Shown here one piece after another: positions 14,481 through 54,111 of a DNA stretch of 64,000 nt; positions within the stretch are counted from its first letter, which is position 1; each line of letters starts with the position of its first letter. The position numbers and the translations under genes were made by a program. The stretch is from the IMG/VR virus record IMGVR_UViG_2939521961_000011, one strand, 5' to 3'. The DNA is from a virus. Taxonomy: Duplodnaviria > Heunggongvirae > Uroviricota > Caudoviricetes. Below the pieces are notes generated by a model, which did no database searches, was not told the DNA's origin, and was given only the letters and a program-made list of their open reading frames with translations.

Positions 14481-14538
14481 TTTCTGGTGACGTTTGGCGG
14501 TATCAGTTTTACTCCGTGGCTGCTCTGCCGCCCTTTTT
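14481..14538 (+). ncRNA. dicF: DicF small RNA
   Basis: Matches DicF as recalled (TTTCTGGTGACGTTTGGCGGTATCAGTTTTACTCC...CTGCTCTGCCGCCCTTTTT); followed by a conserved long-range inverted repeat at 14543-14557 / 14669-14683. Confidence 0.8.
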
Positions 14539-45650: not shown

Positions 45651-45780
45651 GGATATTTATCAGGATTTATCGGTTCCGAATCCCTGGATATGTTAAGCCT
45701 TCACCCCACCAGTGGTGGGCACTGGCGGGTTCTTAATTTCCCCGGATGATCGTGGATTACATTCCACCAGGAGATTACTT

Positions 45781-46413
45781 ATGCTTATCTATCCAGCGGC
45801 AGACCTCCGTTTACAGGGACGCAGAGCACAACCATGGGATAAAACAACCACTCATAAATATCGTCCCGGTCAATATTATGACTTTCGTAAACACCCGGAA
45901 CTGATCGAGACACACCTTGAGGATTTTGTTGAATATTCAGACAGACAAGCGATTCAGACCTTTTTTTCTTTTGTTAAGTGGATCAACAGCAATTCATCTG
46001 CATTCGAGAGCACGGACTGCATGTTTTCAGGAACACCAAAGGTTGATGAATACGCCCCGGTATTTGGTTGCACCCATGCGTCATCTGGCCGCTTCGAATT
46101 TTTGTTTCGCGATACGAAAATAAACCAAAATGAGCGAGCTGTCGGATGGGTACTTAACAAACTATCGCTCTACCTTCAGAAAGAACGGCCCGATTTTTGT
46201 AAAGGAACCTTTGGCATCGTTCCCCTCATGACGGAATATACCGACTCCGGCGGTAACGAGTTCACCGGTTATCGTATTTGTGTCTATTTCGATGCTTACG
46301 GGAATGGAACAGAGGATACCTGGACTTCTCTCAACATCATGTTTGATGGCCTCATGAAAGCCACCAAAAGAATGAGCAATGAAACAATCACTGGCGAGAT
46401 GCGTCCCCTTTAA
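45781..46413 (+). CDS. hypothetical 210-aa protein, antisense to the lysis operon
   Basis: GGAG RBS before ATG; AT-rich; overlaps the 3' end of the convergent 263-aa ORF by ~250 bp; no family recognized. Confidence 0.4.
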   Translation: MLIYPAADLRLQGRRAQPWDKTTTHKYRPGQYYDFRKHPELIETHLEDFVEYSDRQAIQTFFSFVKWINSNSSAFESTDCMFSGTPKVDEYAPVFGCTHASSGRFEFLFRDTKINQNERAVGWVLNKLSLYLQKERPDFCKGTFGIVPLMTEYTDSGGNEFTGYRICVYFDAYGNGTEDTWTSLNIMFDGLMKATKRMSNETITGEMRPL

Positions 46414-46953
46414 AAAATTATCCAGAATCTCACTATTTGCAGAGCGCTCTCTGTTTTTTTGAATACGGAAACACTCTGCGAGATTTCTGCTCATCACTTT
46501 CCGGCAATAATCGTAAAACGCCGCGAACTGCTCATCACGGCGTTTTTTTTCACCTTCGGAAGGGATCTGCACCGACAGTTTTTTATTCAGTTCAACGACG
46601 CTGTTCTCCAGTTTTTCAATGCGTGATTCGATATCATCTTTTTCTGACTGTATCGTGTTATATGCATTGTTAATTTGTATGGTATACCGCTCTTCTGAAC
46701 AGAGGCGCTTTTCCGGCAACGGTTCGTTCCCTTCACATAACCCGGCAGCAATATCCATGAAAAACTGCTTCGCCTTCTTTTTCGCCTCAGCTTCGTAAAA
46801 CTCCAGCGGGGCACCTTCAACACGATCAAGATCAATCACCACATTTGGCAACAACAGTGACGTATACCCACCAGTTTCCAGCGCCACAGTAACAGTAATC
46901 TTATCCGGGTAAATATTTATCCCTTTAACAACCAGTTCGTATTGTTTATTCAT
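46162..46953 (-). CDS. hypothetical 263-aa protein translationally coupled to the holin
   Basis: ATG 3 nt after holin stop with GGGGAG RBS; coiled-coil-like centre; no family recognized. Confidence 0.5.
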   Translation of the reverse strand: MNKQYELVVKGINIYPDKITVTVALETGGYTSLLLPNVVIDLDRVEGAPLEFYEAEAKKKAKQFFMDIAAGLCEGNEPLPEKRLCSEERYTIQINNAYNTIQSEKDDIESRIEKLENSVVELNKKLSVQIPSEGEKKRRDEQFAAFYDYCRKVMSRNLAECFRIQKNRERSANSEILDNFLKGTHLASDCFIAHSFGGFHEAIKHDVERSPGILCSIPVSIEIDTNTITGELVTAGVGIFRHEGNDAKGSFTKIGPFFLKVER

Positions 46954-46956
46954 CGT

Positions 46957-47163
46957 CTACTCTCCCCGCGCCGCCTTACGACGGTCCTCTCTGATTTTGA
47001 AATACAGGTTAGTAAGATACGTCAGCAGGCCAAACAGCAGACTCCCCAGCACACCTATCGCCACCCACTGGGACGGAGAGACTTTGTCCAGCAGCTGCAG
47101 TAACCAGTATCCCGTCCCCACCGCTGACGTGGTGTATGACACACCTGTTGTGATTTTTTCCAT
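46957..47163 (-). CDS. S: holin S (phage 21-type pinholin)
   Basis: 68 aa, two TM segments, charged C-terminus [13 protein letters not shown]. Confidence 0.85.
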
Positions 47164-47340
47164 CTGATGTATGTCTCCGTCACCGCCGACAGAAAATGAA
47201 AGTAAAGAAAAACAAAAAAGCCGCCAGTGTCACCCACTGACGGCCAACGCCGGGAGCCGTGATTATGGCATTCAGGCTCTGCTAAAAATGCCAGATAACA
47301 TTCCGGCCTCCCCTGATTCAGGTTATAAATGACACAATAT

Positions 47341-47460
47341 CTTGACAACATCCGTCACTGTCTGTCAGAAAATGTACTGCCATATAGAAGCAACATGTGA
47401 AGTACATCTATCCTTTTGAGCCAGCACCTCTCCACCGAAAGTCAGTGCTGGCTGTTTTTT
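47341..47460 (+). ncRNA. candidate small RNA unit A (TTGACA -35-like element plus terminator)
   Basis: TTGACA at 47341, hairpin AGCCAGCAC...GTGCTGGCT followed by T7 at 47419-47460; no convincing -10. Confidence 0.35.
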
Positions 47461-47508
47461 TCCTTAATAAGGCATCTGTAACTGAAACAATCCGCATATT
47501 GATAATAT

Positions 47509-47608
47509 ATTGACAGGCATCATTGCTGTCTGTGAAAAATAAGTCTCTACAAACATATAAGGCCTTTTAGCCAGCGTCTTCTTTTTCAGGTCAGTCGCTG
47601 GCTTTTTT
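47509..47608 (+). ncRNA. candidate small RNA unit B, paralog of unit A
   Basis: TTGACA at 47509, conserved TGTCTGT...AAAAT box, hairpin GCCAGCG...CGCTGGC followed by T7 at 47565-47608. Confidence 0.35.
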
Positions 47609-47610
47609 TA

Positions 47611-49461
47611 TTATGCTGCCGGTGCATTTATCTCCAGCATCAGACTTTCTATCTCAACGCCATACGCTGCATTTTTTGTAACATCCGTCAGCGTCAGCGC
47701 ATTCAGTCCCAGTGTCAGACTGTCTTTTATAACCTGGAATGCCGGGCCAGCCACTCCATTCAGTTTCGGAGTAACCGTGGCACTGCCGGCGGTGAACACC
47801 AGCTCCAGCGTCTGCCAGTCGTTACCGTAATCGCCGAACTCCCCCAGCTTCGTGTTTCCGGCTTTCCTGTGATGCATCAGATTCACTCTGCCGTCAGTGG
47901 TCTGAGTGAAGTACGACATCAGGAACGGATTACCGGTACCCGTCATCGCCACACCATCAGGAACGGGAGCATCTGTATACAGATAAATCCCCAGCCCGAA
48001 CTGATTGTTGGTCAGTGCGCCTGACAGGCGGAACTTACAGGTCAGTCTGCCGCCCTGTGTCAGCAGGGTAATTGCGTCATCCACCGGATGCGTCAGGGAC
48101 CAGGTTTTATTGCTCTGCTTGGTGATCTTAAATACACCATCTGACAACTGAATTCCGCCATCCTTAATGCTCCAGCCCTGCGCAGCAGCCTCTCCGGCTG
48201 CCGGCAGCAGGGAGATTGTGCGAACGGACGTATCTGCAGACGGACCCGATGGCGTGTTGCCGCCGGGCGAGGGTTTGATTTCCGGTGCCTTACCACTGAT
48301 GAAGGCGGAGGTGCGCCCGGCTGCGTTCAGAATAGCGGTTGCCAGACGATCCGGAATAATGCTCCTGCGCGCCCATGAACTGAAATGTGTCGGGCGGTTT
48401 GATGATACCTGGTTTCCATTCGTTCTCGATGCCGCACCGTAATATCCTGATGCCGGAATATCCGGATCTTCTGCCGGCGCGTTAGTGGCGGTATTGACAC
48501 CGTTACCGTCTGTCATGAAGGGCACAAAATAAACGCCCTCACTCTCCCTGTTTTTATACCCGCCGTACACGGTGTCGTACTGGGTAGCGTATGTATTTTT
48601 CCAGTAATACGTCGTGTCACCACAAATCCACGGCACATCTGCAGCACTGCCACCATGGCACTGCGCGTTAAACACGGAGAGGTCAGCACGAAACTGTGTC
48701 AGCATGGCTGTAAACAGCGCAGGTTGCTGTGCGTGGGTGGCGGCGCTCATGTCAAACTCTCCCTGCATCCAGCACACCGCCAGCAACACATTTTTCGGGT
48801 TCTTCTGTAATGCAGCTTTAGTGCGCGCAATCAGGTCCTGATATAACGGTTTACCCACACCCCAGCGTGCCGAATCCTGGCTGGCCCCCGTGTCCGCACT
48901 GAATGTCCCCTCCGCGCCCTGGGTGAATGCCGAACCACCACGACAGCATGGTACCAGCAGGATCCCCGCGTTATTCGGGATATACGGGAGCAGTTTTTTG
49001 GCAATATGTAACCCCTGGCCGACACAGCCGTACTGCCCTTTGCTCAGGTCTGCCTTCGGATGATTCAGCGTACTCATATCCTGCACATCATGCAGGCAGT
49101 GGTCGGCCGGAATAATATCGTTATATCTGCAGGCAGCCCCACCCGGCGTCACTGTACTGCGGCGCGCCAGCTGTTTAATGCGCGGATCCGGAGCATCGTA
49201 TGAATCCGGCAGCGGAAGCCCTTCACCGTAAGCCATGGCATTGGACTGCCCGGCCAGTACGATGACGTAGTACCACTCCGGCTCAGTTGCACCACTGACC
49301 ACCACATCACCTTCTGCTGTAATCGCCTGCATCAGGGTATAAGGGGTTATGGCCACCGGACTCCCAAACGGCTGCCAGCCCTCTTTCAGTTTGTGTGTCA
49401 GCTTTTCCGCAAGGTCTGACGGCGACGCCGCCCTGACAACATCATAATGTTTAAATGTCAT
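47611..49461 (-). CDS. nanS-p: NanS-p-like 9-O-acetyl sialate esterase (DUF1737 N-terminus plus SGNH/SASA esterase), intact
   Basis: 616 aa; GQSNAMAYG motif; position between Q and S as in Stx-type phages. Confidence 0.75.
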   Translation of the reverse strand: MTFKHYDVVRAASPSDLAEKLTHKLKEGWQPFGSPVAITPYTLMQAITAEGDVVVSGATEPEWYYVIVLAGQSNAMAYGEGLPLPDSYDAPDPRIKQLARRSTVTPGGAACRYNDIIPADHCLHDVQDMSTLNHPKADLSKGQYGCVGQGLHIAKKLLPYIPNNAGILLVPCCRGGSAFTQGAEGTFSADTGASQDSARWGVGKPLYQDLIARTKAALQKNPKNVLLAVCWMQGEFDMSAATHAQQPALFTAMLTQFRADLSVFNAQCHGGSAADVPWICGDTTYYWKNTYATQYDTVYGGYKNRESEGVYFVPFMTDGNGVNTATNAPAEDPDIPASGYYGAASRTNGNQVSSNRPTHFSSWARRSIIPDRLATAILNAAGRTSAFISGKAPEIKPSPGGNTPSGPSADTSVRTISLLPAAGEAAAQGWSIKDGGIQLSDGVFKITKQSNKTWSLTHPVDDAITLLTQGGRLTCKFRLSGALTNNQFGLGIYLYTDAPVPDGVAMTGTGNPFLMSYFTQTTDGRVNLMHHRKAGNTKLGEFGDYGNDWQTLELVFTAGSATVTPKLNGVAGPAFQVIKDSLTLGLNALTLTDVTKNAAYGVEIESLMLEINAPAA

Positions 49462-50031
49462 TATTCCTCCCGGCCGGGATAGTGTATTAAATCAGATATG
49501 GAGTGGGCTGTAGTCCGGAAGCCTGAATGACACACGGGGACTACAGCCCAAGAAATGAAAAAAGGCCACGCAGTTGCGCAGCCTGATAAACCCTGGTTAA
49601 AATCCACACGATAACAACACAACAATATCAGTATCTCATGCTATTGCCCGAACCCATTCGGGCATTTTTTACCCATAAAAAAGCCCCTCCGGAGAGGGGC
49701 ATGTTTGCATGCACATTCTTTTTCTTGCATGGTGCCGGGTGCCTCCCGGTGAATTCAGTATCAGCACCTGAATCCGCGATTATCACATATACCTGGTTGC
49801 TGATTGCCCCTCCGCACAGGGGGATTCACCATGCAGTAGTATTTTTAATAAACAGTAAACAAAAAAATCAAGCATTATGCAGGCTGTTTCTTTTTATCAC
49901 CGGCCACAGCAATACCACAATGCCGCAGACCAGCACCCCATCCGCCAGCACCGACATGATTCTGCTGGTGAAATCCACCATCACCACCAGAAACAGCAGG
50001 AGTGCAGCCACAGCCAGGCGCAGTTTTACCG

Positions 50032-53745: not shown

Positions 53746-53901
53746 TTACTTCTCAGATTCGTAGTCTACGAAGACAGCGACCTCCGTCTGACCGGTTCGG
53801 ATTCGCACCTCGCAGAGGTCTTTCCTCGTTACCAGTGCCGTCACTATGACGGTTAAACAGATGACGATCAGGGCGATTAACATCGCCTTTTGCTGCTTCA
53901 T
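53746..53901 (-). CDS. hok: Hok/Gef-family type I toxin, second copy (mok-like frame to 53958)
   Basis: 51 aa, same architecture as 7679-7834 with a divergent C-terminal tail. Confidence 0.8.
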   Translation of the reverse strand: MKQQKAMLIALIVICLTVIVTALVTRKDLCEVRIRTGQTEVAVFVDYESEK

Positions 53902-54111
53902 AGCCTGCTTCTCCTTGCCTTTCGGCACGTAAGAGGCTAACCTACATGTGTTCAGCATGGATTGAGCCTCAGATTAATGTTAAGCGTCTTGCAGGACGCG
54001 TAATGTTAACTGGGGCTTTTCTCTATCTGCCGTTGGTGTTCATGCCCGAGGCAGATAGCCTCAAGCACCCGCTGCAATTCTACTTAACTATCCTTTTCCC
54101 GCAAACCGTTT

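What the first reader, a model, noticed from the sequence alone, without database searches (positions are those of the whole stretch)
47335..47610. Two tandem small-RNA-like units antisense to the late operon between nanS-p and the holin
The nanS-p to S intergenic region contains two paralogous plus-strand units. Each has a perfect TTGACA, a conserved TGTCTGT...AAAAT box, a GC hairpin (GCCAGC...GCTGGC) and a T7 run, which is intrinsic-terminator architecture on the strand opposite the late genes. Unit A contains AGCAACAT, close to the CACAACAT motif recognized by GcvB, so these could be prophage anti-sRNAs of the AgvB type or other Hfq-dependent regulators.
Basis: inference. Interest (0 to 1): 0.6.

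Follow-up and report, generated by a model that had tools for sequence, protein, structure and literature searches.

The report
Known prophage sRNA PasA plus paralogue
The two units are real small-RNA genes, but not new ones: the first is identical to PasA, an Hfq-dependent prophage RNA already validated in pathogenic E. coli, and the second is a diverged neighbouring copy so far seen only as an Hfq-bound peak or as a long form of PasA.

Summary
Window 47335-47610 holds two colinear plus-strand units, each with TTGACA, a CTGTCTGT..AAAAT box, a GCCAGC hairpin and a T7 run, antisense to the late operon.

The intergenic region 47164-47620 is identical to prophage PP2 of EPEC E2348/69 over all aligned positions. 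The published PasA coordinates and Northern probe map to unit A (47377-47461, +). PasA is a published Hfq-dependent sRNA, supported by Northern blot and RIL-seq. It has 41 RNA partners, none of them an sRNA.

Unit B (about 47544-47609) matches the Hfq-CRAC peak EcOnc52 of EHEC Sakai. It also forms the 3' end of the published 236-nt "minor" PasA form.

The AgvB/anti-GcvB idea fails:
- Rfam finds the true AgvB 2 kb away and nothing here.
- AGCAACAT lies in the variable part of the RNA.
- Predicted pairing with GcvB is no better than for shuffled sequence.

What is modestly new:
- Unit B is a tandem paralogue. A PasA/PasC-only covariance model finds it at 31.6 bits.
- About 60% of related loci carry the tandem pair.
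- PasC looks like an A/B recombinant.

Whether unit B has its own promoter is unresolved. Verdict: already known, low interest.

The parts
47342..47373 (+). Unit A promoter-like region: TTGACA (47342-47347) and the CTGTCTGTCAGAAAAT box (47358-47373).
   Evidence: It is nearly invariant across PasA, PasA-2-like and PasC loci, while the sequence just downstream varies. The hexamer spacing is non-canonical at 19-20 bp and the sigma-70 scan does not call it. Promoter activity is inferred, not shown.
47377..47461 (+). pasA small-RNA gene, the 85-nt major form. It consists of a variable 5' domain (47377-47418), a U-rich stretch, the terminator hairpin (47419-47453) and the U7 tail (47455-47461).
   Evidence: NC_011601.1 743499->743415 maps here, and the Northern probe GCCAGCACTGACTTTCGGTGGAGAG is the reverse complement of 47428-47452. 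Fold. The helix is kept through two compensatory changes across variants.
47420..47429 (+). Published PasA seed GCCAGCACCU, which is the 5' arm of the terminator.
   Evidence: Fig. S5 text and Table S7 of PMC8550237 give the target motif CUG(A/U)UGCUGG. Zhu et al. note that a seed inside the terminator stem is unusual.
47462..47509 (+). Spacer between the units. It is part of the 236-nt read-through form.
   Evidence: A weak alternative sigma-70-like site lies at 47482-47511.
47510..47540 (+). Unit B promoter-like region: TTGACA (47510-47515) and the CTGTCTGTGAAAAAT box (47526-47540).
   Evidence: It is retained intact in unit-B-only loci: Sakai Sp4 next to IS629, and the plasmid copies.
47544..47609 (+). 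Unit B RNA, about 66 nt if it is independently initiated. It has a 5' domain (47544-47568), a hairpin (47569-47603) and a U7 tail (47603-47609). It corresponds to EcOnc52 and to the 3' part of the PasA minor form.
   Evidence: The EcOnc52 peak in Sakai Sp4 maps to the homologous stretch. An EPEC RIL-seq chimera with escD ends at 743267-743294, which is window 47582-47609. Fold z = -3.7. The PasA/PasC-only covariance model scores it 31.6 bits.
47377..47612 (+). Published 236-nt 'minor' PasA transcript, produced by read-through of terminator A to terminator B.
   Evidence: Table S6 of PMC8550237 gives the minor end at 743264, which is window 47612.
47633..47643 (-). CUGAUGCUGGA motif in the 3' end of the nanS-p mRNA, one of the RIL-seq PasA target sites.
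   Evidence: Table S7 lists E2348C_0688 with the site CUGAUGCUGGA. It is located in the window. In silico pairing alone is not significant.
47219..47245 (-). Late-strand intrinsic terminator upstream of holin S. It is context, not part of the sRNA genes.
   Evidence: Annotated as a terminator in phage 434.

Best explanation
The stretch is the pasA locus of a lambdoid prophage. It holds two tandem, paralogous small-RNA units transcribed antisense to the late operon, between the sialate esterase gene nanS-p and the holin gene.

Unit A encodes PasA (85 nt, 47377-47461). PasA ends at an intrinsic terminator. Its U tail and the upstream U-rich stretch are the expected Hfq-binding module; that step is inferred. 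PasA acts in trans on mRNAs. Its C-rich seed GCCAGCACCU, which is the 5' arm of its own terminator, pairs with CUG(A/U)UGCUGG motifs in many core and virulence transcripts and in the 3' end of nanS-p itself. The RNA-RNA contacts are shown by RIL-seq in EPEC; their regulatory outcome is not known.

Terminator A leaks. Read-through ends at terminator B and gives the 236-nt minor form.

Unit B is a diverged duplicate with the same promoter-like box and a PasC-like terminator whose 5' arm, and so presumed seed, reads GCCAGCGUCU. It is probably also made as its own RNA of about 66 nt. That last step is inferred.
For: Identity of unit A:
- The intergenic region is identical in every aligned position of 47164-47620 to E2348/69 PP2 and 100% identical over 447 nt to phage 434.
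- The published PasA coordinates, strand, gene orientation ('> < >') and probe map exactly onto unit A.

Published evidence for that sequence:
- Northern bands of the predicted size, and Hfq-dependent stability.
- log2FC -2.8 in the hfq deletion mutant.
- 4983 RIL-seq fragments under activating conditions, 94-100% of them as the second RNA of the chimera, with 41 partners.
- A target motif complementary to the terminator 5' arm.

Unit B:
- The Hfq-CRAC peak EcOnc52 sits on it in Sakai Sp4, where IS629 has removed unit A.
- The EPEC RIL-seq entry 'pasA.E2348C_0688.IGR' is always the second RNA of the chimera and has 5 partners.
- Its fragment count relative to PasA changes from 2.4% under activating conditions to 47% under non-activating conditions.
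- A covariance model built without unit B finds it at 31.6 bits (E about 1.6e-4), while the next hit in the window scores 17 bits.
- The terminator helix is preserved by C-G<->U-A and A-U<->G-C changes across 12 variants.
- In 120 IMG/VR loci, about 73 are tandem A+B with 167-169 bp spacing, 28 have a single A-type unit abutting nanS-p, and about 6 have B alone.
Against: - No expression data exist for this particular genome. Activity is inferred from sequence identity.
- The promoter is not proven. The -35/-10 spacing is 19-20 bp and the sigma-70 scan does not call it.
- Zhu et al. read the Northern blot as showing that the PasA 5' end is made by cleavage of a longer transcript.
- The 5' ends come from RNA-seq coverage and CRAC peak edges, not from 5' mapping.
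- The only paper that examined unit B in EPEC treats it as the tail of PasA.
- EcOnc52 reads could come from any of the 3-4 unit B copies that O157:H7 genomes carry; the Sp4 and Sp12 copies are identical in sequence, so reads cannot be assigned between them.
- EcOnc51 and EcOnc52 were not confirmed by Northern blot.
- No phenotype or regulatory outcome has been reported for any PasA target.
Confidence: 0.85

Rival explanations
1. Unit B is not a gene of its own. It is a back-up terminator and the 3' extension of PasA, and every RNA that ends at 47609-47612 started at the unit A promoter.
For: - Pearl Mizrahi et al. list 743264 as the 'minor' 3' end of a 236-nt PasA and merge the intergenic RIL-seq entry with PasA.
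- The unit B promoter-like site is non-canonical.
- No 5'-end mapping or unit-B-specific Northern blot exists.
Against: - The similarity between the units includes the promoter-like box, not only the terminator.
- Unit-B-only loci keep both box and hairpin intact: Sp4, 4-6 IMG/VR loci, and about 100 plasmid copies; the plasmid copy aligned here has 0 changes in the 31-nt box against 12 elsewhere.
- An Hfq peak, EcOnc52, was called on the Sp4 copy, where IS629 lies 20 nt upstream of the -35 and its transposase gene points away.
- The ratio of unit B to PasA RIL-seq fragments differs 20-fold between conditions.
Confidence: 0.4
2. The units are AgvB/AsxR-type anti-sRNAs that sponge a core sRNA such as GcvB.
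For:
- Like AgvB, the units are prophage-encoded and antisense to the late operon, and a true AgvB gene lies in the same prophage.
Against: - The AgvB and AsxR models find nothing here.
- The motif is not conserved among variants.
- GcvB R1 pairing is no better than shuffled sequence, while the AgvB control beats about 98% of its shuffles.
- PasA has 0 sRNA partners among 41 in RIL-seq.
- PasA is 85 nt, against 51-60 nt for that class.
Confidence: 0.03
3. The main role is in cis. As RNAs fully complementary to the nanS-p-to-S junction of the Q-antiterminated late transcript, or through convergent transcription, the units modulate processing or read-through into the lysis genes.
For: - Perfect complementarity follows from the antisense position.
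- The position between esterase and holin is conserved in nearly all loci.
- RIL-seq records a late-strand RNA from this spacer (743494-743512, which is window 47364-47382 on the minus strand) that contacts Hfq and PasB.
- The 3' end of nanS-p is among the PasA partners.
Against: - No experiment addresses this.
- Most PasA partners are unlinked core and virulence mRNAs.
- The units lie more than 200 nt upstream of the S start codon, with a late-strand terminator in between.
- A cis role and a trans role are not mutually exclusive.
Confidence: 0.15
4. The hairpins are only terminators that shield nanS-p and the late operon from stray antisense transcription, with no RNA product of consequence. 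This is how the phage 434 record annotates them.
For: Phage 434 annotates both simply as 'terminator', and PGAP annotates nothing here in the 20 best-matching E. coli records listed.
Against: - A discrete, abundant, Hfq-stabilised 85-nt RNA from the identical sequence has been shown experimentally.
- EPEC PP2 and phage 434 have no plus-strand gene upstream that would need terminating.
Confidence: 0.03

Closest known systems
PasA (pathogenicity-associated sRNA A) of EPEC E2348/69 prophage PP2; Pearl Mizrahi et al. 2021, PMC8550237; Zhu, Shabalina & Storz 2026 preprint
   Same: Unit A is identical to it in sequence, strand, length (85 nt), flanking genes (SASA esterase and class II holin), terminator and seed. 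The 236-nt minor form ends at unit B.
   Different: Nothing for unit A. The window differs from PP2 only further out, with a DUF1327 gene inserted between holin and lysozyme.
PasC of EPEC E2348/69 prophage PP5
   Same: PasC shares the unit A promoter box and 5' start (CTGCCA...). It shares with unit B the terminator flanks (TTTTAGCCAGCGTC ... CGCTGGCTTTTTTTATTATGCT) and the position abutting the nanS-p stop codon.
   Different: PasC is a single unit whose loop differs from that of the window's unit B. Unit B has its own short 5' domain (UCUCUACAAACAUAUAAGG). One IMG/VR locus, L074, carries PasA followed by a unit B with the PasC-type loop, so PasC looks like an A/B recombinant.
EcOnc51 and EcOnc52, Hfq-CRAC peaks in EHEC O157:H7 Sakai prophages Sp12 and Sp4; Tree et al. 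2014, PMC4104026
   Same: EcOnc51 covers the terminator region of the Sp12 unit A variant. EcOnc52 covers unit B of Sp4.
   Different: They are peaks, not mapped transcripts, and were not tested by Northern blot. The Sp12 unit A differs from the window in its first 40 nt or so and is probably the 'PasA-2' of Zhu et al. That assignment is an inference, because their sequences are held only as figures.
AgvB/AsxR anti-sRNAs (Rfam RF02702, RF02703)
   Same: They are prophage-encoded, Hfq-bound and transcribed against the late operon near a moron gene.
   Different: There is no sequence or structure match. They are 51-60 nt and lie upstream of nanS-p next to STnc100/PasD. They act on sRNAs, whereas PasA contacts mRNAs only.
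Tandem duplicated sRNA pairs such as OmrA/OmrB and PrrF1/PrrF2 (named in Zhu et al.; otherwise general knowledge)
   Same: Two adjacent paralogues with related promoter regions and terminators and with divergent inner sequence.
   Different: Here the second copy has not been shown to be independently transcribed. Zhu et al. state that Pas copies are not tandem duplicates, because unit B fell below their BLAST coverage filter.

Membership tests
PasA/PasC prophage sRNA family | Sequence match to PasA of E2348/69 (NC_011601.1 743499-743415, minus strand) and to its Northern probe. | tested here: met
   Unit A is identical over all 85 nt and the probe is the reverse complement of 47428-47452. The covariance model R1 scores it 106 bits, although unit A was in the model's seed alignment.
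PasA/PasC prophage sRNA family | Location between the SASA/sialate esterase gene and the class II holin of a lambdoid prophage, on the opposite strand. | tested here: met
   ORFs at 47611-49461 (minus) and 46957-47163 (minus), with the units on the plus strand. The orientation matches Table S6 and the synteny described by Zhu et al..
PasA/PasC prophage sRNA family | [quoted passage not shown] | tested here: met
   Folds. A 9-bp helix with two compensatory pairs across 12 variants, 96% of cells paired against 21-49% when the partner columns are slid.
PasA/PasC prophage sRNA family | Hfq-dependent accumulation and Hfq-mediated RNA-RNA contacts. | not testable with these tools
   Published for the identical sequence in EPEC. 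Not measured in the source strain of this window.
PasA/PasC prophage sRNA family (unit B as a member) | Recognised by a sequence-and-structure model built from PasA, PasA-2-like and PasC variants only. | tested here: met
   47530-47611 (+) scores 31.6 bits, E about 1.6e-4 (rough calibration). It is the second-best hit in 64 kb, and the next hit scores 17 bits. The match rests mostly on the PasC-like terminator and the U-rich stretch.
PasA/PasC prophage sRNA family (unit B as a member) | A discrete transcript with its own 5' end. | tested here: inconclusive
   The edge of the EcOnc52 peak and the RIL-seq 3' ends fit a discrete transcript. No 5' mapping exists, and a search of an EDL933 Cappable-seq supplement for the box sequences found nothing.
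AgvB/AsxR anti-sRNA class | Conserved 3' region of about 42 nt and overall fold (Rfam RF02702/RF02703). | tested here: not met
   No hit in 47100-47700 even at E <= 10, while AgvB itself scores 96.5 bits at 49609-49670.
AgvB/AsxR anti-sRNA class | A 5' domain that mimics an mRNA target site and pairs with the seed of a core sRNA (GcvB R1 for AgvB). | tested here: not met
   PasA 5' domain against GcvB R1: -16.0 kcal/mol, equalled by 22% of shuffles. AgvB control: -19.4 kcal/mol, equalled by 2%. The motif is not conserved. PasA has 0 sRNA partners in RIL-seq.
AgvB/AsxR anti-sRNA class | Length of 51-60 nt and a position in the convergent sRNA pair just downstream of PR' and its moron gene. | tested here: not met
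   PasA is 85 nt and lies downstream of nanS-p. The convergent pair AgvB/STnc100 sits upstream at 49609-49860.
Sigma-70 promoter (own promoter for each unit) | -35 and -10 hexamers 16-18 bp apart, and a mapped primary 5' end. | tested here: inconclusive
   The -35 is perfect, but the best -10-like hexamers (GAAAAT and AAAAAT) lie 20 and 19 bp away, and the scan does not call them. The box is invariant across variants whose transcribed 5' domains differ. Primary 5' ends are not available.

The most novel reading that the evidence does not exclude
Unit B is a separately transcribed third member of the PasA/PasC family. It would have its own promoter and a different seed (GCCAGCGUCU), and it would have been overlooked because it was merged with PasA as a 'minor form' and fell below BLAST coverage filters. 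The tandem A+B pair would then be the ancestral and commonest arrangement, with PasC arising by recombination between the two units. This contradicts the published statement that Pas copies are never tandem duplicates. Both RNAs might also act in cis on the late transcript just upstream of the holin gene.
Probability: 0.45. Interest if true: 0.35.

Novelty: already known. Interest (0 to 1): 0.2.

Why it matters
PasA ranks 12th among all RNAs in the EPEC Hfq interactome by number of partners. It contacts LEE, BFP and EspC transcripts. It occurs in up to 8 copies per genome in about 13% of complete E. coli genomes (692 of 5426), listed matches being mostly EHEC/EPEC-type serogroups, and it is also present in the classical phage 434. 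Its function is still unknown.

Unit A therefore adds nothing new. The small addition is the recognition that most loci carry a second, paralogous unit with a different seed. This changes how the family's copy number, evolution (the origin of PasC) and target repertoire should be counted, and it gives a simple experiment to settle the question.

As a check on the first-stage scan, reading the sequence alone picked out a real, experimentally validated sRNA locus.

Tried and rejected
- Rfam at gathering threshold on the whole window, and at E <= 10 on 47100-47700: no family covers the units, only chance-level snoRNA and U12 hits.
- GcvB hypothesis: full-length duplexfold gave meaningless long-range duplexes. 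When restricted to the R1 region, PasA, unit B, PasC and the Sp12 variant all scored within the shuffle range.
- Predicted pairing of the PasA and unit B seeds with the nanS-p 3' end: not significant for PasA (36% of shuffles score as well) and weak for unit B (10%). The RIL-seq contact cannot be confirmed in silico.
- Sigma-70 scan: does not call the TTGACA sites. It offers a weak alternative at 47482-47511.
- By eye I checked the CTGTCTGT box against the LexA motif (CTG-N10-CAG), Fur and sigma-E consensus sequences and found no convincing match. This was inspection, not a tool test.
- Small ORF: ATG 47372 to TGA 47419 would encode 15 aa. It starts upstream of the PasA 5' end, has no RBS, and is absent from the PasA-2-like variant, so I rejected it.
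- Other copies in the window: none by short-word BLAST or by the covariance model.
- Public TSS data: the box sequences were not found in the supplement of the EDL933 Cappable-seq paper.
- No paper text mentions EcOnc51 or EcOnc52 by name.
- EcOnc coordinates are CRAC peak edges, and they extend 12-20 nt past the T runs in NC_002695.2. I did not use them as exact RNA ends.

Full report
**What is in the sequence**

The window carries the late region of a lambdoid prophage on the minus strand. The esterase gene nanS-p is at 47611-49461 and the class II holin at 46957-47163.

- Unit A: TTGACA 47342-47347, CTGTCTGTCAGAAAAT 47358-47373, hairpin 47419-47453, T7 47455-47461.
- Unit B: TTGACA 47510-47515, CTGTCTGTGAAAAAT 47526-47540, hairpin 47569-47603, T7 47603-47609. 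The T run ends 2 nt before the nanS-p stop codon.

The combined motif TTGACA-N10-CTGTCTGT occurs only at these two places in 64 kb, against 0.03 expected by chance. The units align in five colinear blocks. Both hairpins fold as predicted, and the T runs follow them only on the plus strand.

One caveat applies. No -10 hexamer lies at canonical spacing from either TTGACA, and the simple sigma-70 scan calls neither site.

**Identification**

Rfam has no family for this stretch. It does find the true AgvB at 49609-49670 (+), convergent with an STnc100/PasD-like element at 49671-49860 (-), upstream of nanS-p.

BLAST shows the spacer is widespread. It occurs in 699 of 5426 complete E. coli genomes, with a median of 5 places per genome. 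It is also present in 29 phage records, 22 of them Stx1a-converting phages, plus phage 434 at 100% identity. Phage 434 annotates the two hairpins only as terminators on the strand opposite the late genes.

The literature search led to two papers on "Pas" sRNAs. Table S6 of Pearl Mizrahi et al. 2021 places PasA in EPEC E2348/69 at NC_011601.1 743499->743415 on the minus strand. That is the 85-nt major form. A 236-nt minor form ends at 743264. The flanking genes are in '> < >' orientation, and the Northern probe is GCCAGCACTGACTTTCGGTGGAGAG.

I fetched that locus. It is identical to window 47164-47620 in every aligned position. PasA therefore maps to 47377-47461 (+), the probe is the reverse complement of 47428-47452, and the minor form ends at 47612, which is unit B's terminator. 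Unit A is pasA.

**What is published about that RNA**

- PasA gave Northern bands of the predicted size and showed Hfq-dependent stability.
- It falls 7-fold in an hfq deletion mutant under virulence-activating conditions.
- In RIL-seq it has 41 distinct partners: 0 sRNAs, 36 CDS/5'UTRs and 3 3'UTR/IGRs. There are 4983 chimeric fragments under activating conditions, and PasA is almost always the second RNA of the chimera.
- The shared target motif CUG(A/U)UGCUGG is complementary to GCCAGCACCU, the 5' arm of the terminator. Zhu et al. call this placement unusual.
- Targets include ftsB, frr, cvpA, bfpI/J, bfpE, espC and the 3' ends of two nanS-p paralogues. The nanS-p motif is present in the window at 47633-47643 on the minus strand.
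- No regulatory outcome or phenotype has been reported.

**Unit B**

Table S6 notes EHEC homologues EcOnc51 and EcOnc52. In Tree et al. 2014 these are Hfq-CRAC peaks in Sakai prophages Sp12 and Sp4. They were seen in 3 data sets and were not tested by Northern blot.

Mapping them gives the following:

- EcOnc51 lies over the terminator of the Sp12 unit A variant.
- EcOnc52 lies over unit B of Sp4. There IS629 has replaced everything upstream of a point 20 nt before unit B's TTGACA, and the transposase gene points away from unit B.

In EPEC the RIL-seq entry 'pasA.E2348C_0688.IGR' is the unit B region. It is always the second RNA of the chimera and has 5 partners. A chimera with escD ends at 743267-743294, which is window 47582-47609. 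Its fragment count is 2.4% of PasA's under activating conditions but 47% under non-activating conditions. That is hard to explain by a constant rate of read-through.

A covariance model built only from PasA, PasA-2-like and PasC variants finds unit B as the second-best hit in the window. It scores 31.6 bits at E about 1.6e-4, and the next hit scores 17 bits.

This makes unit B a diverged paralogue. It is not proof of an independent transcript, for four reasons:

- The authors treat unit B as PasA's tail.
- O157:H7 genomes carry 3-4 unit B copies, and the Sp4 and Sp12 copies are identical, so EcOnc52 reads could come from several of them.
- CRAC peak edges are not RNA ends.
- No primary 5' end is available.

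**Family picture**

A scan of IMG/VR with the promoter-box pattern returned 120 loci.

| Arrangement | Loci |
|---|---|
| Tandem A+B, 167-169 bp start to start, abutting nanS-p where the contig allows | about 73 |
| Single A-type unit whose terminator abuts nanS-p (PasC type and a GCCAGTAC type) | 28 |
| Unit B alone | about 6 |

The box is nearly invariant, while the first 40 nt or so of the transcribed part fall into distinct types.

Across 12 variants the 9-bp terminator helix is kept, with two compensatory changes: C-G to U-A and A-U to G-C.

PasC of EPEC PP5 has unit A's box and 5' start joined to a unit-B-type terminator and its flank. One locus, L074, carries PasA followed by a unit B with exactly the PasC loop. 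PasC is thus most simply a deletion between the two units of such a tandem.

Zhu et al. concluded that Pas copies are not tandem duplicates, with a minimum distance of 22 kb between copies. Unit B would not have passed their 75% coverage filter.

**The anti-sRNA idea**

Four results argue against it:

- No match to the AgvB or AsxR models.
- The motif is not conserved.
- PasA 5' domain against GcvB R1 gives -16.0 kcal/mol, matched by 22% of shuffles. AgvB from the same window gives -19.4 kcal/mol, matched by 2%.
- PasA has no sRNA partners in RIL-seq.

**How it most likely works**

Shown in EPEC for the identical sequence: a plus-strand 85-nt RNA accumulates in an Hfq-dependent way and is ligated to many mRNAs on Hfq. 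A minor form reads through to the second terminator.

Inferred:

- Transcription starts at a promoter formed by the TTGACA and AAAAT boxes.
- The U7 tail and the CCUUUU stretch bind Hfq.
- Pairing uses the terminator 5' arm.
- Unit B is also made on its own and, with GCCAGCGUCU in place of GCCAGCACCU, has a partly different target set.

Not excluded: a cis-antisense effect on the late transcript. Once Q antitermination reads through the spacer, that transcript is fully complementary to both RNAs. RIL-seq also records a late-strand RNA from 47364-47382 that contacts PasB.

**Verdict**

The finding is real and well described, and it corresponds to an already published, experimentally validated sRNA locus. 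The residual novelty is unit B as a tandem paralogue and the recombinant origin of PasC. That is incremental and needs a simple Northern blot or 5'-end experiment to settle.

Noticed in passing
window 49609-49670 (+) and 49671-49860 (-): A perfect AgvB (96.5 bits) lies convergent with an STnc100/PasD-like element (147.8 bits), just upstream of nanS-p. This one prophage therefore carries AgvB, a PasD-like RNA, PasA and unit B within 2.5 kb.
   Followed up: partly
window 47219-47245 (-) and 47290-47307 (-): Two terminator-like hairpins on the late strand sit between the PasA promoter region and the holin start. The first is annotated as a terminator in phage 434. Without Q antitermination they would stop nanS-p transcription from entering the lysis genes.
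   Followed up: partly
window 47364-47382 (-), equal to NC_011601.1 743494-743512 (+): EPEC RIL-seq tables list a late-strand RNA from the holin leader, antisense to the PasA 5' end and box, in chimeras with the unrelated prophage sRNA PasB. The entry totals 798 fragments in non-activating conditions. The papers I read do not discuss it.
   Followed up: no
window 45651-46956: There is a 1.3-kb insert between holin and lysozyme, relative to EPEC PP2 and phage 434. It holds a DUF1327 ORF at 46162-46953 (-). It also holds a 233-aa plus-strand ORF at 45712-46413 that has no Pfam match and is not annotated by PGAP in the identical genomes listed.
   Followed up: partly
L009 2501-2620 (plasmid NZ_CP027339.1) and about 100 similar plasmid copies: Unit-B-only copies at 90% identity occur on 82-93 kb E. 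coli plasmids. In the copy examined (NZ_CP027339.1) the unit lies next to the uilS lactonase gene and IS600, nanS-p is reduced to an 87-bp remnant, and the promoter-like box (0 of 31 positions changed) and the hairpin (one G-C to G-U change) are intact.
   Followed up: partly
L074 (IMG/VR 2671180921_000003), minus strand, about 510-920: A tandem locus with a PasA-type unit A followed by a unit B that carries the PasC-type terminator loop. This is the arrangement from which PasC could arise by a deletion of about 150 bp.
   Followed up: yes
window 47313-47331 and 47625-47643: A 19-nt imperfect inverted repeat (79% complementary) brackets the two-unit cassette. Its right arm overlaps the PasA target motif in the nanS-p 3' end. 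It could be chance or a trace of how the cassette was inserted.
   Followed up: no
window 744-913, 3553-3799, 7829-8003, 8712-8896, 14482-14533, 53896-54070: Other Rfam hits in the window: a second, 3'-degenerate STnc100; three tRNAs; two sok antitoxin RNAs; C4 antisense RNA next to isrK; and DicF. The duplicated STnc100 and sok hits suggest that the window spans more than one prophage or prophage remnant.
   Followed up: no
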